Assembly: GCA_963666685.2 (NCBI GenBank)
Contig: CAXXHZ010000003.1
Location: forward strand, 1,245,921 to 1,277,920
DNA from: an uncultured Desulfobulbus sp.
GTDB lineage: Bacteria; Desulfobacterota; Desulfobulbia; Desulfobulbales; Desulfobulbaceae
Direction of reading: 5' to 3'
DNA: 32,000 nt
The position numbers and the translations under genes are program-made. A model generated the notes under the pieces. The model was not told where the DNA came from, ran no database searches, and saw nothing but the letters and a program-made list of their open reading frames with translations. This document shows, in pieces, positions 6,542 through 19,560 of the stretch. Every line of letters starts with the position of its first letter. Position 1 is the stretch's first letter.

Positions 6542-6605
6542 CGTCTCAGGGTTTATGTGCCCCCCTTATACAGGTCAGGTCGATTTACCCCATGGGGCAC
6601 AAAAC

Positions 6606-6648: not shown

Positions 6649-6653
6649 GTTAT

Positions 6654-6690
6654 TGGTGAACGCGGCGGCATTCAAACCCGCAATTACCCT
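6654..6690 (-). repeat. decayed copy of the 3' end of tRNA-Arg(CCG) (att-like direct repeat)
   Basis: ttattggtgaacgCggcggCattcAaacccgcAa aligns with ttattggtgaacgAggcggGattcGaacccgcGa at 19738-19771 with 4 mismatches. It is in the same orientation and is preceded by the same kind of hairpin. Confidence 0.6.
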
Positions 6691-6744
6691 TGCAACCAAT
6701 TGATCTATATAGAATTATTTTCACAGTGTGATACCGTTGTTATA

Positions 6745-6785
6745 CCGGGAGTTGAACCCGCGTCCCACCTTGTATAGCAAGGCTT
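6745..6785 (-). other. tRNA/tmRNA-like T-arm fragment
   Basis: The reverse complement reads GCCTTGCTATACAAGGTGGGACGCGGGTTCAACTCCCGG. GGACGCGGGTTCAACTCCCG is a T-arm (TTCAACT loop), but no matching acceptor stem or CCA follows. Confidence 0.4.
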
Positions 6786-6843
6786 TCAAGATATGCCGGG
6801 ATACATCCGGGATACCATAGAAAATAATTCAGCCCTTTTAATT

Positions 6844-6879
6844 GTGGCCTGTCCCCGATTGTTTCTGTCCCCGATTGTT
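6844..6879. repeat. repeat gtggcctgtccccgattgtt with an internal tandem copy of ctgtccccgattgtt
   Basis: 6844-6863 is identical to 7455-7474. The core ctgtccccgattgtt occurs at 6849-6863, 6865-6879 and 7460-7474. Confidence 0.85.
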
Positions 6880-6887
6880 TCCTAAGA

Positions 6888-7118
6888 TCATGGGCGATGG
6901 GCGGCGTATTCGTCTAATAGCCGCCGAATCATTTTTTGATACTGGGTGTTATGCTTTTTCGCTTCGTTCTTAAAAAATTCGACACTCGCCTTGCTCAACG
7001 CAATTGTGACTTTAACGGTTTCATCCTTCAAGGCAAGTTCTTCAGGTGAGGGAAGAAAATCAGAAACTCTCTTCACCTTGCCTATAGGCTCTTCAGTGTA
7101 TTTGATTTTCTCTTTCAT
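6888..7118 (-). CDS. brnA: BrnA-type antitoxin (CopG/RHH-like)
   Basis: 76 aa. Carries the pattern DFLPSPEEL...VKVTIALSKASVEFFKNEAKKHNTQYQKMIRRLLDEYA characteristic of BrnA. Overlaps the upstream BrnT gene by 26 nt. Confidence 0.8.
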   Translation of the reverse strand: MKEKIKYTEEPIGKVKRVSDFLPSPEELALKDETVKVTIALSKASVEFFKNEAKKHNTQYQKMIRRLLDEYAAHRP

Positions 7119-7383
7119 ATATCCTCTTTCCTTTCCGCCAGTACCCTGCCCCGATGATTCGGATTTTGCCTTTTTGATGCGTGAACCTCACGGTCATAAT
7201 TCCGCCGGAAACTCTTCCCAGGCAATAATATCGCTTTTCCTGGTCGCTGTGTTCGACATCCTCTAAAATGATACGTTTATGATCTAAGAACGCAAGTTGA
7301 GCTAAAGCAAAAGCAACTCCGTGCTTTTCTTGGTTCAGCTGATCCTTCTCCGAATCCCATTCGAAATCAGATTGCTTACCCAT
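7093..7383 (-). CDS. brnT: BrnT-type (DUF497) ribonuclease toxin
   Basis: 96 aa. FEWDSEKDQLNQEKHGVAF...RYYCLGRVSGGIMTVRFTHQKGKIRIIGAGYWRKGKRIYE matches the DUF497/BrnT layout. Confidence 0.8.
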   Translation of the reverse strand: MGKQSDFEWDSEKDQLNQEKHGVAFALAQLAFLDHKRIILEDVEHSDQEKRYYCLGRVSGGIMTVRFTHQKGKIRIIGAGYWRKGKRIYERENQIH

Positions 7384-7389
7384 TTATGA

Positions 7390-7418
7390 TAAATATGTCG
7401 CCCTAGGCAAACTGTCAA
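7390..7418 (-). promoter_or_regulatory. candidate sigma-70 promoter for brnTA, placed for a leaderless transcript
   Basis: The minus strand reads TTGACA (7418-7413), 17 nt, TATTTA (7395-7390), then 6 nt, then the brnT ATG at 7383. There is no SD between them. Confidence 0.35.
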
Positions 7419-7454
7419 TATAATTATATGTATATTTATACGGTTTATTTACTC

Positions 7455-7474
7455 GTGGCCTGTCCCCGATTGTT
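7455..7474. repeat. second copy of gtggcctgtccccgattgtt
   Basis: Exact 20-bp direct repeat of 6844-6863. The two copies bracket the brnTA cassette. Confidence 0.85.
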
Positions 7475-7566
7475 CTCCGAAATTTCCATCTAAGCCATGC
7501 GTTTTAAAAAGTTGGCACTTATCGCAGCTTACCCGGTCAATAGGCCAACAAAATAACCGAATTTAT

Positions 7567-7630
7567 GTAATAACAATGTTGACACTTTTTATAAATAGCG
7601 GTAAAGTTGTTCATGTAACAACATTGTTAC
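7567..7630 (+). promoter_or_regulatory. mazEF-like promoter with palindromic operator
   Basis: TTGACA at 7579-7584, 17 nt, TAAAGT at 7602-7607. Palindrome GTAACAA-ca-TTGTTAC at 7615-7630. A related inverted half, aacaatgtt (7572-7580), overlaps the -35. SD aagagg lies 8 nt before the ATG at 7652. Confidence 0.45.
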
Positions 7631-7651
7631 TACTAAAAAGAGGCTGGTTTT

Positions 7652-7903
7652 ATGAAAACAACAGTAAGAAAGATTGGTAACAGCTTGGGGAACACTATAC
7701 CTGCTGCCTTTGCCAGAGATATAGGTATTGAGGAAGGAAGTGAAATCAACATCTCGATTAAGGACGGCAATATCATTATTGAGCCAATCACAGGGAAAAA
7801 GCGCTTTCCGTATTCAGAAAAGGATTTGCTTAAAGGGTTGACTGCTCAGACTGCTCATGCTGATGAACTGGCTAGCATATCACCTAAAGAATGGGGTGAA
7901 TAG
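7652..7903 (+). CDS. mazE: AbrB/SpoVT-fold antitoxin (MazE/PemI family)
   Basis: 83 aa. The N-terminal VRKIGNSLGNTIPAAFARDIGIEEGSEINISIKDGNIIIEP is the swapped-hairpin AbrB/MazE motif. Confidence 0.8.
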   Translation: MKTTVRKIGNSLGNTIPAAFARDIGIEEGSEINISIKDGNIIIEPITGKKRFPYSEKDLLKGLTAQTAHADELASISPKEWGE

Positions 7904-8262
7904 TGGTTCGGTACATTCCAGAACGGAACGACATAATTTGGCTAGATTTTGAACCAACAAAAGGCCGTGAGATTGGTAAATATCGGCCCGCCCTTGTTTT
8001 ATCAAGCAAAGCCTATAACCAGCAAACCGGTTTACTGATCTGTTGTCCTATAAGCACCAGTATTAGAGGTGGAATAACTGAGGTGCCAATCAATAACCTC
8101 GATAAGCCTTCAGTGGTCGCAGCTAGCCTCATTCAAACTTTGTCCTGGCGCGATCGAGCAGCCAAGAAGATAACAACGGCTGAATCTCAGGTTATGAATG
8201 ATGTGCTTTATCGCCTTATTCCGCTTATCGGCGGTGATAAGCTACTAAACATAGCAGACTGA
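7903..8262 (+). CDS. mazF: MazF/PemK-family endoribonuclease toxin
   Basis: 119 aa with a GTG start overlapping the mazE TAG. IPERNDIIWLDFEPTKGREIGKYRPALVLS...GLLICCPISTS matches the PemK/MazF core. Confidence 0.8.
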   Translation: MVRYIPERNDIIWLDFEPTKGREIGKYRPALVLSSKAYNQQTGLLICCPISTSIRGGITEVPINNLDKPSVVAASLIQTLSWRDRAAKKITTAESQVMNDVLYRLIPLIGGDKLLNIAD

Positions 8263-8711
8263 ATCAAAATACCTCAAAGTGATTCACGGAAAGCAATAAA
8301 AGCCGTCTGAAGCCCGGTTTAAATCCTCGATCCGCGTTTTTTTTCGGCTATTTTGATTCAAATCTTTTATGTTTTGATTCAACCAAAGGAAAGAGATGAA
8401 ATCAATAATTTCCCCCGAAATGTGGCTGTTCTCCCCCGGTGGTGAATGACTCTATTTGTCAGCTCAAGAGCGCCAGCGGTTTGGCGGGGGCGAATTCTCG
8501 CCGGTCGATAAATTAGAGGATACCGACCTTGCGAAAGGACTTTTTGATACCAACCGTCGCGACTACTAGCCCCCGATCTGCACGGCGCTGGTTATAACAT
8601 AATTAATATTGGTATCAAAACAGAAGTGGCGCCGGCAATCAACCTGGCCAAATGAAAACGGTATCATTAATCGAGATCCGGAGCAAACCTGGGATGAGTT
8701 TTTGATACCAA
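8260..8711. repeat. cluster of six TTTTGAT(T/A)C(C)AA motifs in non-coding DNA
   Basis: ttttgattcaa at 8351-8361 and 8372-8382, with an inverted copy at 8260-8269 that overlaps the mazF stop. tttttgataccaa at 8541-8553 and 8699-8711, with an inverted copy ttggtatcaaaa at 8609-8620. Confidence 0.6.
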
Positions 8712-9301
8712 GCAAAGCGGAAACCCAATCAGCAATCCTAGAAGAACAGGGCTTCCCTTCAATTGTGAGCATTGTGGAAAATCGATTAAAATTGAAGCAG
8801 CCTTGCTCTTTTCCCCTCCCAGTGGGGATATAGTGCAAAAGCACCATCTATGTGGCAACTGCTATCACTCTATTGTTCATAATTTCGTATCCTACGAAAA
8901 GTAACGATAGCAAATAGCTATGATGGATCGTCAGGAATCAACCAGAATTAAAATAGCGAGGTCAATAACTATTAAAGATGTTGACTTTCTAATTACGAAA
9001 TATTTTACAATGAATTGTAAGTCTACTGCCAGCACTGTGAATGATTAGCAGAAACTATTTAATTAAATTCGGTTCTCGATGAGAAATATGTCAGATGTCT
9101 TCTCTAACAAGTAATCACATATGGCTAAAGCAATTTTGCCGTCCTTTCACCTTTTTATTAATAAGTAAGTTGACAACCGAACATTGATTTTTTTTTTGCT
9201 CAACGATTCACGTTCAATTTGCATAAATATTGTTTAATCACCTAATCGATGATCGTCGAGATGTCAGATGATTAACGACCGCCTTAATAGGATAAAAAGA
9301 G

Positions 9302-10195
9302 ATGGCTCTGGCAATATCGACCTCGCAGCACCTCCGACCTTCGGCGATTGAACTGCTCGCCACGCTGCAACAACAAATTGACGCCTCAGAAAGAGGGCTT
9401 CAACGCTTTCTTCCAAAAAATCGAAAAAAGAAACGCTCTGCCACAACTTTGAAAGGTCTGCTTTCTGGGGACCAAAAATCGCATTCTTTCGATTCGATGC
9501 GCATGCTGGTGGCGATCGGCCTTTTACATTGGTCTGATGTACTCGGAAACAGCGCATCGCGCAGCTCTGCCATACCAAATGTCGCTGACTCACTAGCGTT
9601 CTCAGCATGCGCTCTCTGGCCACTTGTACTGATAAGGCATTTCCCAAAAAATTGGGAAGACGATTTGATAGAATTCTCTTCACCTCAAGTTGCTCAACTC
9701 CTGCTGGATGCACGTTTAGCTCTTCGGAAACACAATGAACATACTGTCTTTCCACTTTTTGCATCGGAGCTAACAAAACAAATCTATTCCAGAGGAATAT
9801 ATAATATTTTTGAGGATCTGAATGATGCAGAACGGGGTGCCCACGCCTTTGCTTCTGTCTTGAGGCTTTCTTCTAACAAGAAGATTCCGAAGCGACTTTC
9901 AACAAAAGATTTCTTTCTCTGGATTGGGTCGGCAGCCGTTACTGGCGCCATCGGAAACTTGTTTTATGACGAACTCAAGCAAGTCTGGTCAAATATCGAT
10001 ATTACACACGCGGTTAGTGGTGAAGTAAGCAGTGGATCTGGCGGTAGCTGCGACAACGCAGCATCGCTAAAGCATGATCCCGTTGCTGCAGGGCACGCAG
10101 TCAGCGCTCTTGCCCCCGCCCATTCCCATTCTGCACAGAGCACAACGGCCGATGATCTCGCCAACGGGCTTTCCAGCCTATTTGATCAAGATTAG
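9302..10195 (+). CDS. hypothetical protein (helical, disordered Ser/Ala/His-rich acidic C-tail)
   Basis: 297-aa ORF, the longest frame in this stretch. The overlapping minus-strand 170-aa ORF is R/S-rich and looks like a shadow frame. I recognise no motif. Confidence 0.5.
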   Translation: MALAISTSQHLRPSAIELLATLQQQIDASERGLQRFLPKNRKKKRSATTLKGLLSGDQKSHSFDSMRMLVAIGLLHWSDVLGNSASRSSAIPNVADSLAFSACALWPLVLIRHFPKNWEDDLIEFSSPQVAQLLLDARLALRKHNEHTVFPLFASELTKQIYSRGIYNIFEDLNDAERGAHAFASVLRLSSNKKIPKRLSTKDFFLWIGSAAVTGAIGNLFYDELKQVWSNIDITHAVSGEVSSGSGGSCDNAASLKHDPVAAGHAVSALAPAHSHSAQSTTADDLANGLSSLFDQD

Positions 10196-10232
10196 GCACG
10201 ATAGTGCCATCATCACTCGGAGGATTTCATCA

Positions 10233-10766
10233 ATGCAATGGATTTATCATTTATTGAATTATGCTTTGTGGGCAATCATTCTTGCTTTGCTGTGCATACC
10301 AATCAATATAGCTTTGATAGCGTTACGCTGGTGCTCTGCAAAATATATCTTCCATTTGTGGCGCGTTCGCAAAACACTAACAAAAGTTCCTGACGACTTG
10401 CTGCTACGGTCCGATGGAAAGCATGTTGTATTTGTCACGATAAGTCCAGATGGCACAGAGCAGTATCACCAATTCTATTCTGGTGTGTTAACCTGGAAAT
10501 CAGGACAACGACTTGTGAAGAAATTCCGTAGAACTGTAGACAAACAACTATTGTATCGATCGATTGCGTGGACTTTTATTGTGCTTCCATTATTTATTTC
10601 ATTTACATATTTTATTTTTAACAAACCTGAAGTTATTTCAACAAAGGATGTCTCCGAAATAAGGGGTTGTGTGTCTGGCATCCTGATATTAAGTATTCTT
10701 CAAGCTATGCCATTTACTTTGTTCATGTGGCCAGGACTGCAAGCACTTTTAGAAAATGTTGACTAA
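10233..10766 (+). CDS. hypothetical membrane protein (about 3 TM helices)
   Basis: Start chosen at ATG 10233 (MQWIYHLL), 8 nt after SD ggagga and 38 nt after the previous stop. TM segments: LWAIILALLCIPINIALIAL, IAWTFIVLPLFISFTYFIF and GILILSILQAMPFTLFMW. Confidence 0.55.
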   Translation: MQWIYHLLNYALWAIILALLCIPINIALIALRWCSAKYIFHLWRVRKTLTKVPDDLLLRSDGKHVVFVTISPDGTEQYHQFYSGVLTWKSGQRLVKKFRRTVDKQLLYRSIAWTFIVLPLFISFTYFIFNKPEVISTKDVSEIRGCVSGILILSILQAMPFTLFMWPGLQALLENVD

Positions 10767-10903
10767 TTTTTCTATCGGACCAGGTTGCAGGTTGTTTCAC
10801 CATTTCAATGTTACGTATAACTCTGAAAAGTGTTGACCAGCGGGATATTGACTTTTTCACGATATCTTCTCTGGACTACCCCTTCAGGTAGAAATGGGAT
10901 GAC

Positions 10904-11017
10904 ATTCGGTTTCTGGTTACCACTCAAAATTGCATGATATCCAGTTAGCCGGCACCCTAAAACGCCGATTTTCTGACATCTTGGCTTGAAATGGTGAGTG
11001 ATAGCCAGAAACCGGAT
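10904..11017. repeat. long imperfect inverted repeat / candidate structured RNA
   Basis: 10907-10925 (cggtttctggttaccactc) pairs with 10996-11014 (gagtgatagccagaaaccg): 17 Watson-Crick pairs, 1 G-U and 1 mismatch. The stem extends 3 bp outward and encloses 70 nt that contain smaller complementary segments. Confidence 0.6.
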
Positions 11018-11110
11018 AATAACTTGTTATGCCCCTGAAAACCATCTAGTCGACTGTAACCATTATGAAATATCATGAAACCTAATCGGTAACGTAAACG
11101 GAAACTCGTA

Positions 11111-11836
11111 ATGGCCCTAGAAGAATACGAAAAAACATTAGCGCGATTTCAACTGGAAAAACTGAATACTAAAGTTGACCTCCGGTTAAACAAGAACGGT
11201 AACATAGAAAAAACCCGCGATGGCGATTTGCAATTTGGCAATACCCAAATGAATGCAATGTTCAGGTTAGTTGAGAGATGGCGTCACAGTGAATCCACCA
11301 TAAATGAGTTATTTTTTCCAATGCTTCGCGCTGTAAAGCAACTTGAAAACTTGGAAAAGGAAAGAAAGCAAGGCACGAGCCCTTCGCTTAGCCAAGACCC
11401 AATAGCATATCACCGCGCGACAGAAGCTATTATTGAATATCAATCAGTCTCATCAGTGCTAGCAGGCTCAATTTTTGTTGTTGCGAATAATTTACTTCAA
11501 CGTTTTAGAATGGATCTGAATGCCTCTTGGGACGAGTGGAAATCAGCTATCCCAAAAATCAACAACTTTTCGATTGGCGAGATCTACTCGGCTGCTGCAG
11601 CAAATTTCAGACATTACGATGAATGGGCAATCTCTAAAAAGCCAGACCAAAAGCAACTTCCATCAATGACAGTACTTTGTGGGTTGCTTGACTACCCTGT
11701 TCAAACAAAACATGGATTCTCAACAATCCGAACAAATGTATGCGGAAGCATTCTAATGATGGTCAGCGAAGGGTCAATCGATGGTTTTCACCAGAAAACA
11801 TTTGACTATGTAAAGGCGCTGGCAAAATATCAGTAA
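11111..11836 (+). CDS. hypothetical protein (all-helical, function unknown)
   Basis: 241-aa ORF with no overlapping competitor. It contains R/H-rich segments (RLVERWRH, NFRHYDEW). I cannot assign these to a family. Confidence 0.6.
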   Translation: MALEEYEKTLARFQLEKLNTKVDLRLNKNGNIEKTRDGDLQFGNTQMNAMFRLVERWRHSESTINELFFPMLRAVKQLENLEKERKQGTSPSLSQDPIAYHRATEAIIEYQSVSSVLAGSIFVVANNLLQRFRMDLNASWDEWKSAIPKINNFSIGEIYSAAAANFRHYDEWAISKKPDQKQLPSMTVLCGLLDYPVQTKHGFSTIRTNVCGSILMMVSEGSIDGFHQKTFDYVKALAKYQ

Positions 11837-11985
11837 TGGGCTACGATCAGGCAGTTTTTGCATAAAGTTAACAGCATAAACCAGTCAATAAACCTGACCG
11901 GAAATGGCCACGTTCTTGAAAGGTGGGCAGCATCTCGGCCGGCAGGTTATTTCGCCGTTAGCAATTACTCATTATATAAATAAAT

Positions 11986-12873
11986 ATGGATAAAGTTAGC
12001 ACAGAACTTCTAAAAAGACTGCAATCAACTTCTAAACAATTGCTTACACATGCACTAGAGCACGCTCTCGATGAAACACAAAATGAAAGTAACGTACTGC
12101 AAACAATAATTAATATGCAGTCAGCTCTTGAATTATTGAGCAAATCATATGTTCTACGAAGAGATGGTTGGAAAGCAATTATCGACCCAAAATTTCATTC
12201 GCGTTCAGAATCTTTTCTTCTGTCAGCAATTGCGGATGGGTCAATTAAGACTATACCTTTTTGGAAAAGCCGAGAGATAGCATCTGAAACACTATACCTA
12301 AATGAAGAGGATAGGACTCTGCTAGATACATTTCAAAACAGAAGAAACCAGTTATTGCATTTGGGGTATATAAGTCCACCTAAAGAAATTCTCAATGAGG
12401 CAATATGGTTCTTGGTAAGAATTATTCATCAGCTAAAATGGAAAGAAATTTTACCAGTGAGCGATCAATATCTCACAAATAGTCTTAAGCTATTTATTGG
12501 CAGTGCACTCTATTATAAGTTAATGACAAACTCTTGTTATATCGATGAATCAATTGATCGAGCACACGATCTTTATCCATATGAAGTAACATATTGTTTA
12601 GAATGCGGAAAAGAATCTTTTGTAAAAACCGAAAAAGATAACTTGGTTTGTTTTGTTTGTGGATTTAAAGCAAACACAGATATTATCGGCTTCACCGATT
12701 GCCCATTGTGTGATACGGCTGAAACTGTAGCGTATGACAGGATGAATATTGGAATTAATGATAGAATTAATGGTAAATGCTGCAAATGTAGGGAATTCAT
12801 AGATGTATCAATGTGCAAGGAATGCGGTAATGTTTTTATTGCCGGAAAAATATGCGAATTTTGTGAATGCTAA
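11986..12873 (+). CDS. HEPN-motif protein with three C-terminal CxxC zinc ribbons (predicted RNase, uncharacterised)
   Basis: 295 aa. Helical N-terminal ~190 aa with FQNRRNQLLHLG, the Rx4H (RNxxxH) HEPN signature. The C-terminus has CLEC-x15-CFVC, CPLC-x24-CCKC and CKEC-x11-CEFCEC. AT-rich, with no SD before the ATG. Confidence 0.65.
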   Translation: MDKVSTELLKRLQSTSKQLLTHALEHALDETQNESNVLQTIINMQSALELLSKSYVLRRDGWKAIIDPKFHSRSESFLLSAIADGSIKTIPFWKSREIASETLYLNEEDRTLLDTFQNRRNQLLHLGYISPPKEILNEAIWFLVRIIHQLKWKEILPVSDQYLTNSLKLFIGSALYYKLMTNSCYIDESIDRAHDLYPYEVTYCLECGKESFVKTEKDNLVCFVCGFKANTDIIGFTDCPLCDTAETVAYDRMNIGINDRINGKCCKCREFIDVSMCKECGNVFIAGKICEFCEC

Positions 12874-13386
12874 CATAACGATCAAGCGGATGCTTACCTT
12901 GGGCGTACTAGTCAAGGTTTCTCCAGTCTACCGTGACTTTCGGCAGGGGTTGTGGGATGAAAATAAAGTTGGAAACCAAAAGACACTTATGTGTTTGATG
13001 TTCCGTGAATTGAGTTTCAGGGAATTCAATAAAGATGGTAACTTTGAGGTCGATTTTAGAACCAGTGCATGTAAAAACAAGCAGTTAACTCTATAGTTAC
13101 CGACTTTATTTGGAAGATCCCAACTATATTTTCAACCCACAAGAATGGCCTTCAAGAAACGATGAAAAGGCGTATGGCGGAATGAGTCATAAAATGAAAA
13201 AACAGGCGATACGCCAGAGACACCAAGGAGACAGAAGACTCGTCGTGATTGACGAGAGACAGAATGTCGCGACAAAATCAGGTCCCGCAATTATTGTGGG
13301 ATTTATGGTTCAAATGGTTAATAACCAAGGTCAATTCGCGCCTGCCAATGCAATTTCGCATGGCCTGCTCAAAATTTAACGCCCTA

Positions 13387-14256
13387 TTAATAAATATAAT
13401 CACCAATCCATGGATAATCTGCTTTAGACAACAAGACTGCACATTGCCTGGCTCTTGCAAATGGCTTGGAATCTTTGATTTCAGATTTAAGTCTGGCGAT
13501 TGCGGCATCAAATCTTTTGTAAAAAACACTACCTGTTGCGGCTCCACTTTTTTGCCATATTTTGAACATAGCATCGGCATCCTTAATATCTCGTGAAATA
13601 TCAATTACATAGGCTCTACGTTGTTGTGCTATTTCTTTTTTATCCAGATGGAACAACCATATGGTAACTTTTAAACGCCCCAATTCCTCATCACTCGGAG
13701 AATCTTTTTTCAAAGTTGGAGTGCCATCGGGACTGAACCACAGTAGTGCCATATCAGCTACGTTACATGGATCAAATGGCAACACAGCTTCTTCGATCTG
13801 ATCCCATTCCGTTCCTTCTGGTGCTCTTGCTCCTTCAACGGGGAAAAAATCCCACTTGCCTCCTTCCGTTTCCTCATCAACTCGTCGTTGATTCGAATGC
13901 ATGCAAGACAAACGAAAATTTTTCGGTTCAAACGCCAACCACCAGTAGCCTGGCGATATATCCCCCGTTTTTTCCAAGGTGCTATGGTCGATTTCGACAA
14001 CCCTTCCCTTGGGACGGAAGTGATCAACATTTGGATCTGCTCCATCCAAAGGCACTTCGGAGTACCAGCACTTGTTTCCGACAGCGCTTCTCAACCATTC
14101 CAGCAAAGCACCGTTGCCCCAAGTTTCATCTCTCTTTGATTTGATGAACGCAGCTCTTTCTTCGGGATTTTTCTCCAGCAGCTCTTTCGTTAACTCCCGA
14201 GCCTTGGCCTCCCATGCGGGGTCAAAAGGCATGTCATAGGGATTTATATATATCAT
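13387..14256 (-). CDS. ptuB: HNH endonuclease, Septu PtuB-like
   Basis: 289 aa. HNH core NKCWYSEVPL...VDHFRPKG...WWLAFEPKNFRLSCMHSNQRR, as in the HNH nucleases that pair with AAA_15/21 ATPases. ATGA overlap with the upstream ATPase gene. Confidence 0.7.
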   Translation of the reverse strand: MIYINPYDMPFDPAWEAKARELTKELLEKNPEERAAFIKSKRDETWGNGALLEWLRSAVGNKCWYSEVPLDGADPNVDHFRPKGRVVEIDHSTLEKTGDISPGYWWLAFEPKNFRLSCMHSNQRRVDEETEGGKWDFFPVEGARAPEGTEWDQIEEAVLPFDPCNVADMALLWFSPDGTPTLKKDSPSDEELGRLKVTIWLFHLDKKEIAQQRRAYVIDISRDIKDADAMFKIWQKSGAATGSVFYKRFDAAIARLKSEIKDSKPFARARQCAVLLSKADYPWIGDYIY

Positions 14257-15797
14257 CCCTGCCCCCCACTAACAGCATCGTACAACTTCGAAGAAAGTTT
14301 ATCTATCGCCTCAATCTTCCAGTCGGGGTTCTCGTCGGATGAGACAATCTCATTCACAACAATTTCATAGGCCATTCGGGCTATATTTTGATATGGATCG
14401 GGAGATATCTCGTCAGGGGTAAGACTTGGCACAAGCTTCCGAAGACGCTCAAGGTCTCTTTGTTGCTTCGGGTACTTTTCTTCAGAGGCTACTTCATATA
14501 TTCGTTTCAATACCCGTAGGCTAAAGGGATCAAGCTGGCTCTCCAAGCCAAACAAGGGGCTTGTCAAAACCCCGGCAACGCCCCTCCCACGTGGACTCTC
14601 TTCAGGCTCTTTTGCAACTATTTGCCCTTTTTGATTTCGGTGCAGCACGCGAATTTCATTTTTACGCAACCCGGAAACGAGCAAGGGGTCATGGGTCGCA
14701 AGGATAGTATGACTATTCTTATCAATCTCACCGACATTGCGTAAATGCTCCAGATAGTCAACACCCCAAGCCGGATTCAGATGGGTGTCCGGCTCATCAA
14801 GGAAATAGAGGGATTCAGCATTTCTGGTAAAGCGCATGAGGCCCAGGACCGTTAACAACTGCTGCTCGCCTTCGCTCAATTGCCGGGTGTGAATTGAGTC
14901 ATCACTACCTTTCACCCTTACCTTTACACGAAATGAACTTTCATCGATAAATTCGCTCAGCCGCATAGTGTCGAGTGCCTGGAAGAGTGCACCGGGGTCT
15001 TTTCCGTATTCCCTGGCCAAGGATTGAAGTGCTTGTAAATCAGGCAGATAAAGATAAAGAAATTCTTTTGTCAGGTTGCGACGAAAATCAACTTTAGTCC
15101 TCACTGTACTTGAAAACGGGACGAGACTATGCCGCTTGATCGCTTCCAGCAAGTCACGGACCGGCCCTTTGGCACCCCAGAAATCCTTTGCCTCAGCATT
15201 TTTTTTAGCCCAGGATGGTTTGTTTAAAACGATAAGCAACGAATCGAATGCTTCAATCCTGGGAAGTTTTTCGAGAAATTTGCAGACTTCTATATCGTCG
15301 GAATAATAGAAGGCTAAAAGGGAAAAAAGACCGTGGATCGGTCGCGCACAAATAAAGCTGCTTAGATCAAGTTTGTCGTTATCCTGGTTGTCTTCCAGTG
15401 TTTTATTCAGGGCAATTTTGTCGTGTTCTTCAAATAGTTCTTTAAAACGATCACTCGTTCCGGAATAATACCCGACAACATACCGAGGAGAATACTTCTC
15501 TCTAACTACTGTTGCAGTAACATTCTTACCGTTAACAGTTGCAGTAGGCGTTTTCCCTTCAATCCCATTGAGGCAGACATGATGTCCAGCAATCTTGTAG
15601 CTGAGTTCATAGGAGAACGGGGCAGATTTCTTGAGATTCAATTGGGAAAATATGCTGATGAGCGCCTCAGCCAAGTTCGTTTTAGCGGAACCATTACGGC
15701 CAATCAATACGGTAACATCGCAAGACTCGTTAAAGTCGATACAGAATCCTTCAAGGTTTTTCCACTTGCTGGTAATTCTTAGCTTATTGATTCGCAT
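14253..15797 (-). CDS. ptuA: ABC/SMC-like AAA_15/AAA_21 ATPase, Septu PtuA-like
   Basis: 514 aa. Walker A GRNGSAKTN, signature-like LSEGEQQ, Walker B LYFLDEPDTHL, H-loop ILATHDP. The start overlaps the hsdS 3' end by 14 nt. Confidence 0.7.
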   Translation of the reverse strand: MRINKLRITSKWKNLEGFCIDFNESCDVTVLIGRNGSAKTNLAEALISIFSQLNLKKSAPFSYELSYKIAGHHVCLNGIEGKTPTATVNGKNVTATVVREKYSPRYVVGYYSGTSDRFKELFEEHDKIALNKTLEDNQDNDKLDLSSFICARPIHGLFSLLAFYYSDDIEVCKFLEKLPRIEAFDSLLIVLNKPSWAKKNAEAKDFWGAKGPVRDLLEAIKRHSLVPFSSTVRTKVDFRRNLTKEFLYLYLPDLQALQSLAREYGKDPGALFQALDTMRLSEFIDESSFRVKVRVKGSDDSIHTRQLSEGEQQLLTVLGLMRFTRNAESLYFLDEPDTHLNPAWGVDYLEHLRNVGEIDKNSHTILATHDPLLVSGLRKNEIRVLHRNQKGQIVAKEPEESPRGRGVAGVLTSPLFGLESQLDPFSLRVLKRIYEVASEEKYPKQQRDLERLRKLVPSLTPDEISPDPYQNIARMAYEIVVNEIVSSDENPDWKIEAIDKLSSKLYDAVSGGQG

Positions 15798-17373
15798 CGG
15801 TTATCCTCCGAATCGGCTCGTTCGAGCCGACAGGAACATCAAGCAGCGTGTTTCTGCCTTCGCGTAACAGCTCGAAAAAACGATCGATGTCGCCAGATAA
15901 ACCAGATTCTATAACAAGTCGATCCGCCGTTGCATTTCCGCCGAGTTGATCAAGAGCAGAAACAAGTTCATTGAGTGTTGTGACCGTTTTTGTTTTCACA
16001 TGGCGCTCTTTTTTTATTTTATTTGTCCGGGGCTCTCGTTTTTGTTCAGGCTCGTTCGCTTTCCCTTCCTTGATACGTTTCAAAAGCTCACTTGCAGGTT
16101 CGTCGTTGGGGGCTTGGGGCACCAATTCACCACGAAAGGCCTTATTAAGAAGAGAGGGCGTTAGTTGGGCGACCTGTTCGAGACCTGCTGCGTAGCGGGC
16201 TTCAAGGCGGTTGGCAAAGGAAAATAAAATTTCGACACGACGGACTATTTCGCGCTGCTCAGACAATTTGGGGACTAAAGCAGGCGCAGATACTACGGTC
16301 TGTTGGTTTATCTTTGGCATATTGCCGGCTGTGCCTGTAGCATTTTCGCGAAAATAATTACGAACCGGCTCGCTTGATAAGATGTAATAGAGGTATTCCG
16401 TCAATACACGATGATTAGGCCGACATTTCATCATTAAATCCGGATAAATGAAACTTTCAACTGGACCATCATAGATCGCACTTACTCCAACGTATTCAAT
16501 AGAATTTGCTCGTTGAATTAATATGTCGCCAGGCATCAACCATAGATGTGAATTTTTCGGGATGTCCTCGTCAATATATTTAGAATGTGCCCGATTGAAT
16601 CGACCGCTTGTAGTTGCTGAGAGAGTCAGTGAGCGTGTATTAGTTTGGAACGGAACAGCTTTGGGCGAGTATCCGTTCCGAGGTTTTTCAGCCAGCAGGT
16701 CACCAATTCGAACTTTCTCCCATTCAAACTCTTCTCCTTGATCTTCTCGCCACTCCTCCGTCAGAGTACCCGAAGTGGCGGCAGCAAGCACCGACTGGCG
16801 GAAACGTTTGAGAATTTGTGGCACCCGGTCCAGCCGGTCGCGGCATGCATCAACCCGCGCCAGCAATGCGTCGAGTTTATCAGCAATCCGTTTTTGTTCA
16901 TTGAGGGGAGCAAGTACAAAAGGGAGTTTTGCTGCGACCGAGCCAGAGAGTTCCTTGAAGGTCGTGCCGGTCGCCATCATTTCCGCAATAGGCTTGATAT
17001 GGCGCAAATAATAATAAACGAAGCGGCTGTCTGTCGATTCAGTCAGGACAAAACTTTTGAATCCCTGACTGGTAGTGACTTCAGTTGACGCGATTGCAAC
17101 GTACCCTACCGGTGCACGACTGGAAAACAAGACGCTTCCGGCAGGCATTTTCATCGCAGAGCAAGCCGAATAGCCTTTCTCGGAAAGATTCCGAGCCCCT
17201 TTGCTAATGTATGCATCTTTGTAACCGCTCAAATCCGCTGGAGTAATCCAAGGAATCCCACCCTGAGTCGTAAAATTCGTTGGGTCCTTTGATGGAGGAG
17301 TCCCGCCACCAACAACTTTTGCGACATCGCAGATCTCGCATTCAACCCAGTTTTCGGGCAACTCTGAGCTCAC
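15784..17373 (-). CDS. hsdS: type I restriction-modification specificity subunit HsdS with a ~90-aa C-terminal extension
   Basis: 529 aa. Two TRD halves, each followed by a conserved helical spacer (LNEQKRIADKLDALLARVDACRDRL... and LSEQREIVRRVEILFSFANRLEARY...LLNKAFRGELVPQ). GTG start overlaps the hsdM TGA. Confidence 0.85.
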   Translation of the reverse strand: MSSELPENWVECEICDVAKVVGGGTPPSKDPTNFTTQGGIPWITPADLSGYKDAYISKGARNLSEKGYSACSAMKMPAGSVLFSSRAPVGYVAIASTEVTTSQGFKSFVLTESTDSRFVYYYLRHIKPIAEMMATGTTFKELSGSVAAKLPFVLAPLNEQKRIADKLDALLARVDACRDRLDRVPQILKRFRQSVLAAATSGTLTEEWREDQGEEFEWEKVRIGDLLAEKPRNGYSPKAVPFQTNTRSLTLSATTSGRFNRAHSKYIDEDIPKNSHLWLMPGDILIQRANSIEYVGVSAIYDGPVESFIYPDLMMKCRPNHRVLTEYLYYILSSEPVRNYFRENATGTAGNMPKINQQTVVSAPALVPKLSEQREIVRRVEILFSFANRLEARYAAGLEQVAQLTPSLLNKAFRGELVPQAPNDEPASELLKRIKEGKANEPEQKREPRTNKIKKERHVKTKTVTTLNELVSALDQLGGNATADRLVIESGLSGDIDRFFELLREGRNTLLDVPVGSNEPIRRITDANQ

Positions 17374-18767
17374 CCCTCCACCTCCACACCCAGTTCCGCC
17401 ATAATCCCCCTCAACTCTGCCATGGCCGCTTCCAACGCCCCCATCGCTTCCTGCGCCAGGACCACCGGCTCGGAAAGTTCGTCGATTATTCCAAACCAGG
17501 AAATGTCGAGGCTGTCATCTTTGATGTCTTTAATCCATTCACGCGTAAAGCAGCGAAAGCGGCCTTCCTCCCCCAGATCCTTGCGCTTGAACTTGCCGTG
17601 GGGGGCATCGCCGAAACTGGCAATGAACTCCTTAAAATGCTCTTTTCCCAGCGGTGTCCGCTTACCGAAACTGGGCATATTGGCCCGCATGTCGTAAACC
17701 CAAACCTCTTTCGTATTCTCCTTGTCTTTCTCTCCCCGCGAGAAAAAGAGAACATTCGTCTTCACACCTTGGGAGTAGAATATACCGGTGGGAAGACGCA
17801 AGATCGTGTGGAGGTTGCACTTGTTCATCAGATCCTGACGAATATCTTTCCCCACCCCGCTCTCGAACAGAACATTATCGGGAAGTACCACTGCTGCCCG
17901 GCCACCCGCCTTAAGGCCAAGATAGATATGCTGTAAAAATAAGAACTGTTTATTGGCCGATGTGAACGGAATATCATCTCGCCCCTTTCTCGCGCCGCCA
18001 GCTTTTGCCCCAAATGGCGGATTAGCAAGTATCAAATCAGCAGGTTGCAATTCTCGGCAATCCTCGGAAAGGGCGTCACCCAGTATGATATTGGCGTTCA
18101 TTCGATGCAGGAATGTGTTCATCAGGCTGATACGGTGCGTTCCTTTTTCAATCTCCATACCTTGGTAAACAGGTGGATTGGCCAGATATTGAGATTTACT
18201 GTTTTCAGCCCGAATAAAGTGGTCGGCGGAAATTAGGAAGCCACAACTCCCTGATGCCGGATCTTGAATCACCTCTCCCAACTGCGGTTTCATCACCTGA
18301 ACAATACAATCAACCAACGCCCGAGGGGTAAAATATTGACCTGCGCCTGAACGCGCATCTTCAGAATTTTTTGCCAGCAAACCTTCGTATATCTGCCCAA
18401 AACCATCGTCTGATACCGAGTGCCAGTCGATTTTGTTTATCCCATCGATGACAGCCTTAAGGTTTTCCGAGTGATTAAAGACTGTTGTAGGAAATGCGTA
18501 TATCTCCCGTACCGTTTCCGTTGCACCCGCACCTCCAAGATGGGTCAACATCTCCTGATAGTAAAACAACAGGTTGTCGCCTTTGAAACTGACTAAATCT
18601 TTCCAGCGGTGTCTAGCAGGAAGGAGGTCTTCCGTCCCTGTCTCCTCCGCAATTTTCAGGAACAGAAGGTAGGTTAGCTCCGAAATATACTCATGGTAAC
18701 TGATGCCGTCACCACGCAGAATATTGCAGAGACTCCAGAGTCTTTGGACTATATTTTCGCTTTTCAT
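17370..18767 (-). CDS. hsdM: type I restriction-modification N6-adenine DNA methyltransferase HsdM
   Basis: 465 aa. HsdM N-terminal helix LWSLCNILRGDGISYHEYISELTYLLFLK, SAM motif DPASGSCGFL, catalytic NPPFG. Confidence 0.9.
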   Translation of the reverse strand: MKSENIVQRLWSLCNILRGDGISYHEYISELTYLLFLKIAEETGTEDLLPARHRWKDLVSFKGDNLLFYYQEMLTHLGGAGATETVREIYAFPTTVFNHSENLKAVIDGINKIDWHSVSDDGFGQIYEGLLAKNSEDARSGAGQYFTPRALVDCIVQVMKPQLGEVIQDPASGSCGFLISADHFIRAENSKSQYLANPPVYQGMEIEKGTHRISLMNTFLHRMNANIILGDALSEDCRELQPADLILANPPFGAKAGGARKGRDDIPFTSANKQFLFLQHIYLGLKAGGRAAVVLPDNVLFESGVGKDIRQDLMNKCNLHTILRLPTGIFYSQGVKTNVLFFSRGEKDKENTKEVWVYDMRANMPSFGKRTPLGKEHFKEFIASFGDAPHGKFKRKDLGEEGRFRCFTREWIKDIKDDSLDISWFGIIDELSEPVVLAQEAMGALEAAMAELRGIMAELGVEVEG

Positions 18768-19527: not shown

Positions 19528-19560
19528 TCAGTCAAAAATAGACTAAGTGGCTAATATTGT

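What the first reader, a model, noticed from the sequence alone, without database searches (positions are those of the whole stretch)
11986..12873. Uncharacterised HEPN-motif protein fused to three zinc ribbons
Seen directly: a 295-aa ORF whose helical N-terminal half contains FQNRRNQLLHLG, an R-N-x3-H match to the HEPN Rx4-6H catalytic motif. The last ~100 aa carry six CxxC pairs arranged as three ribbons (CLEC..CFVC, CPLC..CCKC, CKEC..CEFCEC). The gene is much more AT-rich than the core: 21 G+C in the 60 nt at 12001-12060 against 37 in the 60 nt at 4501-4560, counted by hand. It also lacks an SD.

Established knowledge: HEPN domains are metal-independent RNases that recur in abortive-infection, toxin-antitoxin and CRISPR ancillary systems (Anantharaman et al. 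2013).

Inference: I do not recognise this HEPN + triple-ribbon architecture as any named defence protein. Its position between TA modules and Septu/type I RM suggests an undescribed RNase effector, with the ribbons as a nucleic-acid or protein sensor.
Basis: partly seen in the sequence, partly recalled or inferred. Interest (0 to 1): 0.75.

Follow-up and report, generated by a model that had tools for sequence, protein, structure and literature searches.

The report
Divergent HEC-08-like HEPN–zinc-ribbon defence gene
This gene encodes a predicted RNA-cutting (HEPN) domain fused to three zinc ribbons; it is real and probably an anti-phage or anti-plasmid suicide nuclease, but the design has already been described and tested as the defence system HEC-08, of which this is a distant relative that current annotation models miss.

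Summary
The 295-aa ORF, the RNQLLH motif, the twelve ribbon cysteines, the low G+C and the missing SD are all there.

The HEPN reading is supported. R120, N121 and H125 are at least 98% conserved across 128 relatives. Relatives give weak hits to eight HEPN Pfam families, always over this motif. HepT toxins are the best specific fold matches, but none is statistically significant.

The claim that the architecture is undescribed is wrong. HEC-08 (Payne et al. 2024 preprint, E. coli ECOR52) has an N-terminal DUF3644 HEPN domain plus C-terminal zinc ribbons. It protects against phage, and protection is lost when the Rx4-6H histidine is mutated. The target clade aligns with the HEC-08 clade over its full length (hhalign 99.4%, E=1e-21). 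Identity is only about 21%, and PADLOC's HEC-08, DUF3644 and PDC-S64 models do not detect the target.

The gene has no conserved partner. Its relatives sit beside Mokosh, Borvo, Tiamat and RM systems, and here beside Septu. Several relatives are integron cassettes. The window copy keeps the cassette boundary heptamers inside a roughly 13-kb tRNA-Arg island.

The most likely function is a self-contained abortive-infection RNase whose ribbons act as sensor or regulator. That last step is inferred, by analogy with RAZR.

Verdict: new, divergent member of a known kind; moderate interest.

The parts
11957..11963 (+). GTTAGCA heptamer 22 nt upstream of the ATG. It looks like an integron cassette 5' boundary (R'-like core, close to GTTRRRY).
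   Evidence: GTTAGC[A/C] lies 14-22 nt before the start codon in 4 of 10 independent loci whose upstream DNA is otherwise unrelated. It is the exact reverse complement of 12868-12874. GTTAGCV is not enriched window-wide, so the evidence is its position and pairing, not its count.
11986..12873 (+). Complete ORF of 295 aa: a HEC-08-like HEPN plus triple zinc-ribbon protein.
   Evidence: Searches show the ORF. There are 19 close and 172 distant homologues, nearly all about 300 aa. The AF2 model has pLDDT 91.6 and pTM 0.85. hhalign against the HEC-08 clade gives 99.4%, E=1.2e-21, over residues 6-294.
11986..12465 (+). N-terminal all-helical HEPN domain (aa 1 to about 160), DUF3644/EC042_2821-like.
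   Evidence: Helices are predicted at 3-27, 34-60, 75-84, 92-100, 107-125 and 132-145. BLASTP against the HEC-08 HEPN domain gives E=1e-7. hhalign of A2 against HEC-08 gives 97.6%. Family members give weak hits to HEPN_RiboL-PSP, Apea, Swt1, HepT-like, HEPN, MAE_28990, Cthe2314 and DUF3644. A subgroup consensus exceeds the HepT-like gathering score. The best specific Foldseek matches are HepT/SO_3166 5YEP and other HEPN toxins, none of them significant.
12118..12144 (+). Conserved polar residues on helix 2 (Q45, E49, L50, K53), a candidate second half of the active site.
   Evidence: In the 128-sequence family E49 is 99% conserved, Q45 91% and K53 88%. Their role is inferred.
12343..12360 (+). 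R120-N-Q-L-L-H125, an Rx4H HEPN catalytic-type motif at the C-terminal end of helix 107-125.
   Evidence: The motif is invariant in A1 and 98% conserved in A2. It aligns with R123/H128 of HEC-08, whose H128A mutant loses defence.
12466..12582 (+). Helical linker (aa 161-199) between the HEPN core and the ribbons.
   Evidence: Helices are predicted at 166-171, 173-181 and 185-196. N165, S166, G172, L175, L179, Y185, E188 and D191 are conserved in the close clade.
12595..12660 (+). Zinc ribbon 1 (C204, C207, C222, C225).
   Evidence: All four cysteines are invariant in 128 sequences. There is a weak S27e/TFIIB-type ribbon similarity.
12700..12789 (+). Zinc ribbon 2 (C239, C242, C265, C268), carrying the conserved Y250-D251-x-M/L-N254 patch at nt 12733-12747.
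   Evidence: The cysteines are invariant or 99% conserved. D251 and N254 are 88% conserved across 128 sequences. This is the most conserved of the three ribbons.
12814..12864 (+). Zinc ribbon 3 (C277, C280, C290, C293), the most variable part of the protein.
   Evidence: The cysteines are 91-95% conserved. Non-Cys identity is only 25% in the close clade, against 54% for the HEPN domain.
12868..12874 (+). TGCTAAC overlapping the stop codon, resembling an attC R''-like inverse core. It is the exact reverse complement of 11957-11963.
   Evidence: GCTAAC lies at or just after the stop codon in 5 of 10 loci, although their C-terminal residues differ. In L012 and L013 it starts a complete attC-like site that ends in GTTAG. 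L001 shows the compensatory pair GTTAGCC/GGCTAAC. In the window no closing GTTAG occurs within 150 nt downstream, so the attC is incomplete.

Best explanation
The ORF encodes a distant member of the HEC-08-like group of single-protein defence nucleases.

**Domains.** The N-terminal domain is a DUF3644/EC042_2821-type HEPN fold. Its R120-N-x3-H125 motif, probably together with Q45, E49 and K53 on helix 2, would form a metal-independent RNase site. As in other HEPN enzymes, that site is expected to be completed across a homodimer. The C-terminal 95 residues are three Cys4 zinc ribbons.

**Proposed mechanism.** The protein is made constitutively in a latent form. The ribbon module senses an infection cue and switches on the HEPN RNase. 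The cue could be a phage or plasmid protein or nucleic acid, and sensing may work through a change in oligomeric state. The RNase then cuts cellular or invader RNA, which stops translation and aborts the infection. No antitoxin or partner is needed.

**Mobility.** The gene moves as an integron cassette. The copy in the window is an ex-cassette inside a roughly 13-kb tRNA-Arg defence island.

**What is shown and what is inferred.**
- Shown here: the anatomy, residue conservation, full-length homology to HEC-08, absence of a conserved partner, defence-island and cassette contexts.
- Shown by others for HEC-08 only: phage defence that depends on the motif histidine.
- Inferred: RNase activity of this protein, dimerisation, the sensor role of the ribbons, and an abortive outcome.

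**Confidence by step.** Homology to HEC-08 and the HEPN plus ribbon architecture: about 0.95. A defence or conflict function: about 0.75. The ribbons as trigger sensor: about 0.4. The overall figure given is for the statement that this is a HEC-08-like stand-alone defence RNase.
For: **Homology to HEC-08.**
- BLASTP gives E=1e-7 over the whole HEPN domain, with R120/H125 aligned to R123/H128.
- hhalign of the 128-sequence profile against HEC-08 gives 97.6%, E=3e-12.
- hhalign of the target clade against the HEC-08 clade gives 99.4%, E=1.2e-21 over 266 columns, covering the HEPN domain and all three ribbons.
- An HMM built from HEC-08 and its 9 nearest relatives scores the target at 52 bits.

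**Catalytic and structural residues.** R120, N121 and H125 are 98% conserved, E49 99%, and the ribbon cysteines 91-100% in 128 sequences.

**HEPN family signals.** They cover the motif helix. HEPN toxins are the best specific fold matches.

**Domain swap.** P0140 carries a bona fide PIN_12 RNase domain (E=2.5e-17) fused to the same ribbon module. The ribbons are therefore a portable module that is paired with different RNase heads.

**Variability.** Ribbons evolve faster than the HEPN domain in the close clade: 37% against 54% identity, and 25% for ribbon 3. In RAZR the zinc-finger domain is likewise the variable, specificity-determining part.

**No partner.** No neighbour is conserved across 10 independent loci.

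**Defence neighbours.** MkoA/MkoB, BovA, TmtA, RM genes and (weakly) LmuA flank homologues. Septu, HsdMS, BrnTA and MazEF flank the gene here.

**Horizontal transfer.** The gene is 2-16 G+C points below its locus in all nine homologue loci examined, and 13 points below the window average here. attC-flanked copies occur in Pontibacterium and Microbulbifer. The tRNA-Arg 3' end is duplicated at both island ends.
Against: - The target is not detected by PADLOC's HEC-08, DUF3644 or PDC-S64 HMMs even at E<=1. Those models do detect 26, 36 and 13 of the 128 relatives.
- The target has no hit in Pfam or NCBIfam.
- Identity to HEC-08 is only about 21%, so function could have diverged.
- RNA cleavage has not been shown biochemically, even for HEC-08. 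That paper reports only the H128A phenotype.
- Nothing is known about what the ribbons do. The conserved YDxLN patch in ribbon 2 argues that part of the module binds something invariant rather than a fast-evolving phage protein.
- Some contexts are not obviously defensive: L001 sits next to a LysR regulator, and L004 lies between IS elements.
- This copy lacks an SD and any promoter match above chance, so its expression is unproven.
Confidence: 0.72

Rival explanations
1. It is an anti-plasmid rather than anti-phage immunity protein of the Ishtar type. In that model a HEPN protein clears conjugative plasmids, for example by degrading replication primer RNA, with only a mild effect on the host.
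For: Ishtar Ist1 and Ist2 from A. baumannii are single-gene proteins. [quoted passage not shown] They occur near defence genes and in integron-like regions with attC sites. The target model has three helices (166-196) followed by eight short strands, which fits that description. The target's relatives are integron cassettes.
Against: The Ishtar sequences (XZW63086.1, MGQ1310977.1) were not available, so homology could not be tested. None of five family accessions, nor the HEC-08 accession itself, appears in that paper's supplementary tables. The paper mentions neither cysteines nor zinc. The only experimentally tested homologue with proven sequence similarity, HEC-08, is anti-phage. The two roles are not mutually exclusive.
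Confidence: 0.15
2. It is the toxin of a toxin-antitoxin or addiction module. Such a module would stabilise the island or cassette array, with an adjacent gene such as the upstream 241-aa ORF at 11111-11836 as antitoxin, as in HepT/MNT systems.
For: HEPN toxins of type II/VII TA systems (HepT) are the best structural matches. A subgroup consensus passes the HepT-like Pfam threshold. TA cassettes are common in integron arrays, and BrnTA and MazEF lie in the same island. A co-oriented ORFan ends 150 nt upstream.
Against: No neighbour recurs across 10 independent loci; only duplicate contigs share neighbours. No MNT or nucleotidyltransferase gene is adjacent in any locus. The upstream ORF is a database singleton with no family match. 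At 295 aa with three ribbons, the protein is unlike the roughly 130-aa HepT toxins.
Confidence: 0.06
3. It is a catalytically competent HEPN protein with a non-defence role, such as RNA processing or regulation, in which the ribbons bind a fixed cellular RNA or the ribosome.
For: Ribbon 1 weakly resembles ribosomal S27e/L37e and TFIIB-type ribbons. The YDxLN patch in ribbon 2 is conserved across very divergent members, which suggests an invariant ligand.
Against: The distribution is rare and patchy: 19 clusters at 90% identity in 5.8 billion proteins and 172 representatives in 1.84 billion. Only 3 of 185,579 species-representative genomes hold a close relative. The gene is atypically AT-rich in every host. 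It sits in defence, IS or integron contexts. The closest tested homologue is a defence gene.
Confidence: 0.04
4. The N-terminal domain is not a HEPN nuclease, and the RNxxxH match belongs to an unrelated helical scaffold. The protein would then act purely as a zinc-ribbon nucleic-acid or protein binder.
For: No curated HEPN model hits the target itself. Foldseek E-values are above 0.1. An Rx4-6H match occurs by chance in 56% of shuffles.
Against: R, N and H are 98% conserved over 128 sequences. Eight different HEPN-clan families give weak hits, always over the motif helix. PADLOC's DUF3644 HEPN model hits 36 relatives at E-values down to 4e-25. Profile-profile links to HEC-08 are strong, and HEC-08's motif histidine is functionally required.
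Confidence: 0.03

Closest known systems
HEC-08 (Payne et al. 2024, bioRxiv 10.1101/2024.01.29.577857; WP_001313577.1, E. coli ECOR52; PADLOC PDLC04162)
   Same: Both are single-gene systems. The domain order is the same: an N-terminal DUF3644-type HEPN domain with RNxxxH (H128 in HEC-08, H125 here), then helical linkers, then C-terminal Cys4 zinc ribbons. Homology is detectable over the full length. Both are found embedded in or next to other defence systems.
   Different: Identity is about 21%, and the target is not recognised by the PADLOC HEC-08 HMM. The target is 295 aa against 366 aa. HEC-08 carries a fourth, inserted ribbon (C253/C256/C271/C274) that the target and most HEC-08 relatives lack. 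HEC-08 was found embedded in Hma (Hachiman-type) loci in Enterobacteriaceae, whereas this clade is found in environmental Proteobacteria and in integron cassettes. This clade has no experimental data.
PDC-S64 (PADLOC phage-defence candidate, PDLC05059/05058)
   Same: PDC-S64 has the three-ribbon HEPN-ZnR form at about 320-340 aa. The most distant clade recovered by the target's profile (P0148, P0155 and others) matches it full-length at E=1e-24 to 1e-36.
   Different: The target itself does not hit the model. PDC-S64 is only a computational candidate.
RAZR / PD-T7-4 (Zhang et al., Nature 2026, PMC13017515)
   Same: RAZR is a single protein that combines a Cys4 zinc-ribbon domain with a HEPN RNase. 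The HEPN R and H residues are needed for defence. The zinc-finger domain is the most variable region and sets phage specificity. It is an abortive-infection RNase. This is the best mechanistic analogue.
   Different: The domain order is reversed: RAZR has the ribbon at the N-terminus and only one ribbon, not three. Its HEPN domain is of the DUF4145 family, not DUF3644-like. No PADLOC PD-T7-4 or Pfam DUF4145 hit was obtained for the target. Activation of RAZR by 24-mer assembly around phage portal or Gp77 rings is shown for RAZR only.
EC042_2821/DUF3644 HEPN family (Anantharaman et al. 2013, PMC3710099)
   Same: [quoted passage not shown] Twelve family members give weak Pfam DUF3644 hits, and 36 hit PADLOC's DUF3644 model.
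   Different: The target is below detection for PF12358. The 2013 survey did not single out the stand-alone triple-ribbon architecture.
HepT/MNT type VII toxin-antitoxin HEPN toxins (e.g. SO_3166, PDB 5YEP)
   Same: They are the best specific structural match to the N-terminal domain (probability 0.85, TM 0.50, 149 columns). The Rx4H motif sits on the equivalent helix. A subgroup consensus passes the Pfam HepT-like threshold.
   Different: HepT toxins are about 130 aa, have no ribbons, and depend on an adjacent MNT antitoxin that AMPylates them. No such gene is present here.
Ishtar Ist1/Ist2 (bioRxiv 10.64898/2026.07.06.735840)
   Same: They are single-gene proteins with an N-terminal HEPN domain (DUF3644 or DUF4145) and a beta-rich C-terminal domain. 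They occur in integron-like contexts and near defence genes.
   Different: They are anti-plasmid (causing RP4 loss) rather than anti-phage. No zinc or cysteines are reported for them.

Membership tests
HEPN superfamily (Anantharaman et al. 2013) | Conserved Rx4-6H motif, commonly with a polar residue after the R | tested here: met
   R120-N-Q-L-L-H125 is invariant in 19 sequences. R, N and H are each 98% conserved in 128 sequences.
HEPN superfamily (Anantharaman et al. 2013) | All-alpha helical-bundle core with the motif on the equivalent helix of known HEPN structures | tested here: inconclusive
HEPN superfamily (Anantharaman et al. 2013) | Profile similarity to established HEPN families | tested here: met
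   The target alone gives no hit. Family members hit RiboL-PSP, Apea, Swt1, HepT-like, HEPN, MAE_28990, Cthe2314 and DUF3644. A subgroup consensus scores 27.5 bits against HepT-like, above the gathering score of 23.5. Thirty-six of 128 members hit PADLOC's DUF3644 model at E-values down to 4e-25.
HEPN superfamily (Anantharaman et al. 2013) | Metal-independent RNase activity from a composite dimeric active site | not testable with these tools
   This needs biochemistry or a multimer structure. Only monomer prediction was possible.
HEC-08-like HEPN-zinc-ribbon defence proteins (defined by homology and architecture) | N-terminal DUF3644-type HEPN domain homologous to that of HEC-08 | tested here: met
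   BLASTP gives E=1e-7 for residues 6-179 against 11-190. hhalign of A2 against HEC-08 gives 97.6%, E=3e-12.
HEC-08-like HEPN-zinc-ribbon defence proteins (defined by homology and architecture) | Several C-terminal zinc-ribbon or zinc-finger-like domains that can be aligned with those of HEC-08 | tested here: met
   hhalign of the target clade against the HEC-08 clade gives 99.4%, E=1.2e-21, for target residues 6-294 against HEC-08 residues 18-358. Ribbons 1, 2 and 3 align with HEC-08 C212-C242, C304-C325 and C335-C357, and HEC-08 has one extra inserted ribbon. The CxxC-rich composition may inflate this part of the score.
HEC-08-like HEPN-zinc-ribbon defence proteins (defined by homology and architecture) | Stand-alone gene without a conserved partner, located among defence genes | tested here: met
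   No neighbour recurs in 10 independent loci. Validated defence genes flank the gene in at least 5 of them.
HEC-08-like HEPN-zinc-ribbon defence proteins (defined by homology and architecture) | Phage defence that requires the Rx4-6H histidine | not testable with these tools
   This is shown for HEC-08 only (H128A).
HEC-08 as PADLOC defines it (HMM PDLC04162); also PDC-S64 (PDLC05059) and PADLOC DUF3644 (PDLC01688) | Significant match to the PADLOC HMM | tested here: not met
   The target shows no such hit at E<=1 or at E<=1e-3. As a positive control, HEC-08 itself scores 1e-173, and P0155, P0148 and P0063 score 1e-18 to 1e-28. The target is therefore not filed as HEC-08 in the strict sense, only as a distant relative.
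RAZR / PD-T7-4 | N-terminal single Cys4 zinc-finger domain followed by a C-terminal DUF4145 HEPN domain | tested here: not met
   The domain order is reversed and there are three ribbons. No DUF4145 (Pfam) or PD-T7-4 (PADLOC) hit was obtained.
RAZR / PD-T7-4 | Activation by oligomerising around ring-shaped phage proteins | not testable with these tools
   This rests on experimental work (cryo-EM and escape mutants) done for RAZR only.
HepT/MNT (type VII TA) | Adjacent MNT nucleotidyltransferase antitoxin gene | tested here: not met
   No NTase gene is adjacent in the window or in any homologue locus.
Integron gene cassette | attC recombination site directly 3' of the ORF (R'' RYYYAAC ... R' GTTRRRY, imperfect palindrome) | tested here: inconclusive
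   Homologues in L012 and L013 carry complete attC-like sites (GCTAACAAG...GTTAG, 80-100 nt). L012 is an array with at least 4 such sites. The window copy has only the R''-like TGCTAAC at the stop codon and no closing GTTAG within 150 nt. Folding energies were not diagnostic. No attC covariance model was run.
Integron gene cassette | 5' boundary core complementary to the cassette's own R'' | tested here: met
   The window pair is GTTAGCA/TGCTAAC (7/7). L001 has GTTAGCC/GGCTAAC (7/7, a compensatory change). L004 and L012 match 6/7.
Integron gene cassette | Integron integrase (intI) and attI nearby | tested here: not met
   No integrase-like ORF was seen in the window among those scanned. Not every ORF of the window was scanned.
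Ishtar (Ist1/Ist2) | Sequence homology to Ist1 (XZW63086.1) or Ist2 (MGQ1310977.1) | not tested
   Only accession numbers are given. The sequences could not be obtained with these tools, and five family accessions plus the HEC-08 accession are absent from that paper's tables.

The most novel reading that the evidence does not exclude
The triple zinc-ribbon block may be a portable trigger-sensing module that can drive different RNase heads. It is paired with a HEPN domain in most members and with PIN_12 in P0140. This unmodelled clade, spread by integrons, might use the block to recognise a conserved invader feature through the invariant YDxLN patch of ribbon 2. Ribbons 1 and 3 would tune specificity. 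Activation might work by trigger-induced assembly, as in RAZR, and the target might be conjugative plasmids as well as phages, which would link HEC-08, PDC-S64 and Ishtar into one superfamily. None of this is excluded by the evidence, and none of it is shown.
Probability: 0.2. Interest if true: 0.6.

Novelty: new member of a known kind. Interest (0 to 1): 0.4.

Why it matters
**Annotation.** About 70% of the 128 relatives examined, including this gene, are invisible to PADLOC's HEC-08, DUF3644 and PDC-S64 models. The HEC-08-like group is therefore several times broader than annotated, and defence-island censuses undercount it.

**Biology.** HEC-08 has a phenotype but no known mechanism. This family supplies:
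- a deep alignment that separates candidate catalytic residues (R120, N121, H125, E49, Q45, K53) from a conserved ribbon-2 patch (Y250, D251, N254) and from variable ribbons 1 and 3;
- a natural PIN-for-HEPN domain swap;
- evidence that the gene travels as an integron cassette.

These give concrete mutants and chimeras for testing how a zinc-ribbon module controls a suicide RNase.

**Limits.** The finding does not open a new class of system.

Tried and rejected
- **Direct family scans.** Scans of the target against Pfam, NCBIfam and PADLOC found nothing relevant.
- **PDB sequence searches.** Searches with the protein and with both profiles found only generic zinc-ribbon similarities such as S27e, L37e, RPB9 and TFIIB.
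- **Conserved partner.** An all-against-all BLASTP of ORFs within 6 kb across 12 loci looked for a partner or antitoxin and found none.
- **Window as an attC array.** Repeat search found no recurring attC family. GTTAGCV is not enriched. ssDNA folding z-scores were weak even for the clear attC sites of L012, so they were not used as evidence. My simple attC finder missed the known sites and was dropped. The 5-site alignment was too poor at its 3' end to justify building a covariance model.
- **Expression signals.** Promoter and terminator scans around the gene gave counts equal to shuffles.
- **Rfam.** Scanning 6300-13500 found only a sub-threshold tmRNA-like T-arm.
- **Other collections.** There are no copies in E. 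coli complete genomes (DNA), PLSDB plasmids or INPHARED phages (tblastn).
- **Source organism.** It was not identified. The protein comes from a 3.18-Mb NCBI/ENA contig without a name, and the exact-protein locus look-up failed.
- **Link to Ishtar.** This could not be tested because only accession numbers are given.
Full report

Yes. The ORF at 11986..12873 (+) is 295 aa with an ATG start. It contains FQNRRNQLLHLG, with R120 to H125 at nt 12343-12360. It also contains six CxxC pairs, starting at residues 204, 222, 239, 265, 277 and 290.

The gene is 34.7% G+C against 48.0% for the window. The 22 nt before the ATG hold no SD.

A bare Rx4-6H match means little on its own. It appears in 56% of shuffles of this protein, and RNxxxH in 1.3%. 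The real signal is conservation:
- Nineteen homologues (43-71% identity, all about 295 aa) keep R120, N121, Q122, H125, L126, G127 and all twelve ribbon cysteines invariant.
- An exhaustive profile search found 172 representatives, mostly about 300 aa.
- In a 128-sequence alignment, seven of the ribbon cysteines are invariant and the other five are 91-99% conserved. E49 is 99% conserved, R120, N121 and H125 are 98%, and Q45 is 91%.

**2. What is the protein?**

The AlphaFold2 model is confident (pLDDT 91.6, pTM 0.85). Residues 1-196 are all-helical, with the motif at the end of helix 107-125. Eight short strands follow and form three ribbons.

The target itself matches nothing in Pfam, NCBIfam, PADLOC or PDB sequences, apart from generic ribbon similarities.

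Scanning all 128 relatives gave weak but convergent hits to eight HEPN-clan families: RiboL-PSP, Apea, Swt1, HepT-like, HEPN, MAE_28990, Cthe2314 and DUF3644. It also gave hits to double-zinc-ribbon models. Subgroup consensus sequences place every HEPN hit over the RNxxxH helix, and one exceeds the HepT-like gathering score (27.5 against 23.5 bits).

**3. The architecture is already known.**

A literature search found HEC-08 (Payne et al., bioRxiv 2024). [quoted passage not shown] It matches SO_3166 structurally, it reduced plaquing of at least two coliphages by orders of magnitude, and its H128A mutant lost defence. Its sequence is in that paper's Table S2.

Direct tests of homology:
- BLASTP of target against HEC-08 gives E=1e-7 over the whole HEPN domain, with R120/H125 aligned to R123/H128.
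- hhalign of the 128-sequence profile against HEC-08 gives 97.6%, E=3e-12.
- HEC-08 aligns full-length with the most distant clade my profile had recovered (P0155, P0148 and others).
- hhalign of the target clade against HEC-08 plus nine relatives gives 99.4%, E=1.2e-21 over 266 columns (target 6-294, HEC-08 18-358). This includes all three ribbons. HEC-08 merely has a fourth, inserted ribbon that most of its own relatives lack.
- A reciprocal HMM scores the target at 52 bits.

**Calibration of the negative PADLOC result.** PADLOC-DB 2.0.0 does contain HEC-08 (PDLC04162), DUF3644 (PDLC01688) and the candidate PDC-S64 (PDLC05059). HEC-08 scores 1e-173 against its own model. Of the 128 relatives, 26, 36 and 13 hit these three models. 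The target and about 70% of the family do not. The target is therefore a distant relative of HEC-08/PDC-S64 with the same architecture, and not HEC-08 as currently modelled.

DUF3644 corresponds to the EC042_2821 HEPN family of Anantharaman et al. 2013, which that survey recorded as fused to ZnR domains and occurring in R-M operons.

**4. Context.**

No neighbouring gene is conserved across ten independent loci, so the gene is a stand-alone unit. Neighbours of homologues include:
- MkoA/MkoB (Mokosh), immediately upstream;
- BovA (Borvo), immediately upstream;
- TmtA (Tiamat), immediately downstream;
- a type I-like RM system with integrases;
- IS elements;
- TA pairs.

In the window the gene lies between BrnTA, MazEF and three ORFans on one side and ptuB-ptuA-hsdS-hsdM on the other. 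The gene is AT-richer than its locus in every genome examined. No copies were found on plasmids, on phages or in E. coli.

Only three of 185,579 species-representative genomes hold a close relative: Pontibacterium sinense, Microbulbifer hainanensis and a Nitrosomonas MAG.

**5. Mobility.**

In Pontibacterium the homologue sits in a clear integron cassette array. Successive ORFs are separated by 80-100-nt sites that begin YTAACAAG and end GTTAKVV. In Microbulbifer the stop codon runs straight into GGCTAACAAG...GGCGTTAGC.

The window copy keeps GTTAGCA 22 nt before the ATG, and its exact reverse complement TGCTAAC over the stop codon. The Nitrosomonas copy has the compensatory pair GTTAGCC/GGCTAAC. 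However, the window has no complete 3' attC and no attC array. It is therefore best read as an ex-cassette.

The surrounding roughly 13 kb (about 6.68-19.74 kb) is bounded by tRNA-Arg(CCG) at 19740-19816 and by a 32-nt, 91% copy of that tRNA's 3' end at 6650-6681. This marks an integrase-less tRNA island.

It may also account for the lack of own expression signals. Other copies do have SD sequences.

**6. How it most likely works.**

This section combines established HEPN biology with inference. HEPN RNases dimerise to build a composite Rx4-6H active site (Anantharaman 2013; summary in PMC13017515). Here R120, N121 and H125, together with the equally conserved Q45, E49 and K53 on helix 2, are the candidate site.

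The ribbons are probably the regulatory or sensing part, for three reasons:
- **Faster evolution.** In the close clade the ribbons evolve faster than the HEPN domain: 37% against 54% identity, and 25% for ribbon 3.
- **Analogy with RAZR.** In RAZR, the one mechanistically solved zinc-ribbon+HEPN defence protein, the zinc-finger domain binds phage ring proteins, sets specificity and drives the activating assembly.

The strongly conserved Y250-D251-x-L/M-N254 patch of ribbon 2 suggests that part of the module contacts something invariant. That could be the HEPN domain itself (autoinhibition) or nucleic acid.

No part of this mechanism has been tested for this clade. RNase activity has not been shown biochemically even for HEC-08.

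**7. Rivals.**

- **Anti-plasmid role, as in Ishtar.** Ishtar proteins combine a HEPN DUF3644/DUF4145 domain with a beta-rich C-terminus and occur in integron-like contexts.
- **TA toxin.** This is disfavoured by the lack of any conserved neighbour.
- **Housekeeping role.** This is disfavoured by rarity, composition and context.
- **Not a HEPN domain.** This is disfavoured by conservation and by the profile links.

**8. Verdict.**

The HEPN, ribbon and defence reading is supported. The 'undescribed architecture' claim is not.

The gene is a new, divergent member of a known kind, the HEC-08-like HEPN-zinc-ribbon defence proteins. It belongs to a large part of that group that current defence-annotation models miss, and it spreads as an integron cassette.

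Interest is moderate (0.4). It is useful for annotation and as a rich comparative data set for working out how the ribbon module controls the RNase. It is not a new class of system.

Noticed in passing
window 6650-6681 and 19736-19816 (also 6593-6621 / 19503-19531; 19535-19608): tRNA-Arg(CCG) lies at 19740-19816 (-). A 32-nt, 91% copy of its 3' end lies 13 kb away at 6650-6681. Similar terminator-like sequences sit beside both copies. A second, uncalled tRNA-like 3' half lies at 19535-19608. Together these delimit an integrase-less genomic island of about 13 kb that holds all the defence and TA genes.
   Followed up: partly
L012 (Pontibacterium sinense NZ_JADEYS010000015.1) 9890-12300; L013 (Microbulbifer hainanensis) 1153-1252: Homologues of the gene are integron cassettes. 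L012 is an array with at least four attC-like sites (YTAACAAG...GTTAKVV, 80-100 nt) separating small ORFs. In L013 the gene has a complete attC-like site at its stop codon and an IS3-type transposase end inserted just upstream.
   Followed up: partly
window 14253-18767 (-): hsdM (17370-18767), hsdS (15784-17373), ptuA (14253-15797) and ptuB (13387-14256) are co-oriented, and each successive pair overlaps by 4-14 nt. No hsdR was seen in the window. PtuA's best NCBIfam hit is TIGR04435, 'restriction system-associated AAA family ATPase'. This looks like a Septu pair embedded in, or replacing the R subunit of, a type I methylase/specificity operon.
   Followed up: no
window 6837-6880 and 7448-7475: A 27-nt repeat (TTTAMTYGTGGCCTGTCCCCGATTGTT; its CTGTCCCCGATTGTTT core is tandemly doubled at 6849-6880) flanks the brnT-brnA pair (6888-7383, minus strand) on both sides. 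The TA module may have been inserted as a small mobile unit.
   Followed up: no
window 6440-6540 and 6744-6819: An IS3-family OrfA-like HTH remnant (translation ...ESTVKLVTKQGCQTAESARHLGINPTM...) lies at the left edge of the island; this is my own reading of the translation and was not scanned against any family. A sub-threshold Rfam tmRNA/T-arm-like match (14.6 bits, gathering score 47) lies at 6744-6819 (-).
   Followed up: no
window 9302-11836 (+): Three co-oriented ORFs lie just upstream of the target: 9302-10195 (297 aa), 10074-10766 (230 aa, overlapping the first) and 11111-11836 (241 aa). None has a credible Pfam, NCBIfam or PADLOC match. The 241-aa protein is a database singleton. A 31-nt, 81% complementary inverted repeat (10904-10934 / 10987-11017; DNA fold z = -2.4) lies between the last two.
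   Followed up: partly
P0140 (Logan contig, 355 aa); P0146 (412 aa); P0048 (706 aa); P0067, P0099, P0115, P0125 (about 500 aa): Several family members have variant architectures. [quoted passage not shown] P0146 has an unrelated 300-aa N-terminus with no RNxxxH. P0048 carries a 420-aa N-terminal extension. A small clade has a C-terminal extension of about 200 aa after the ribbons.
   Followed up: partly
window 12961-13111: Inverted repeats (AAATAAAGTTGGAAAC / GTTACCGACTTTATTT and a second overlapping pair) lie in the 500-nt ORF-free gap between the target and ptuB. They could be degenerate attC remains or a terminator.
   Followed up: no
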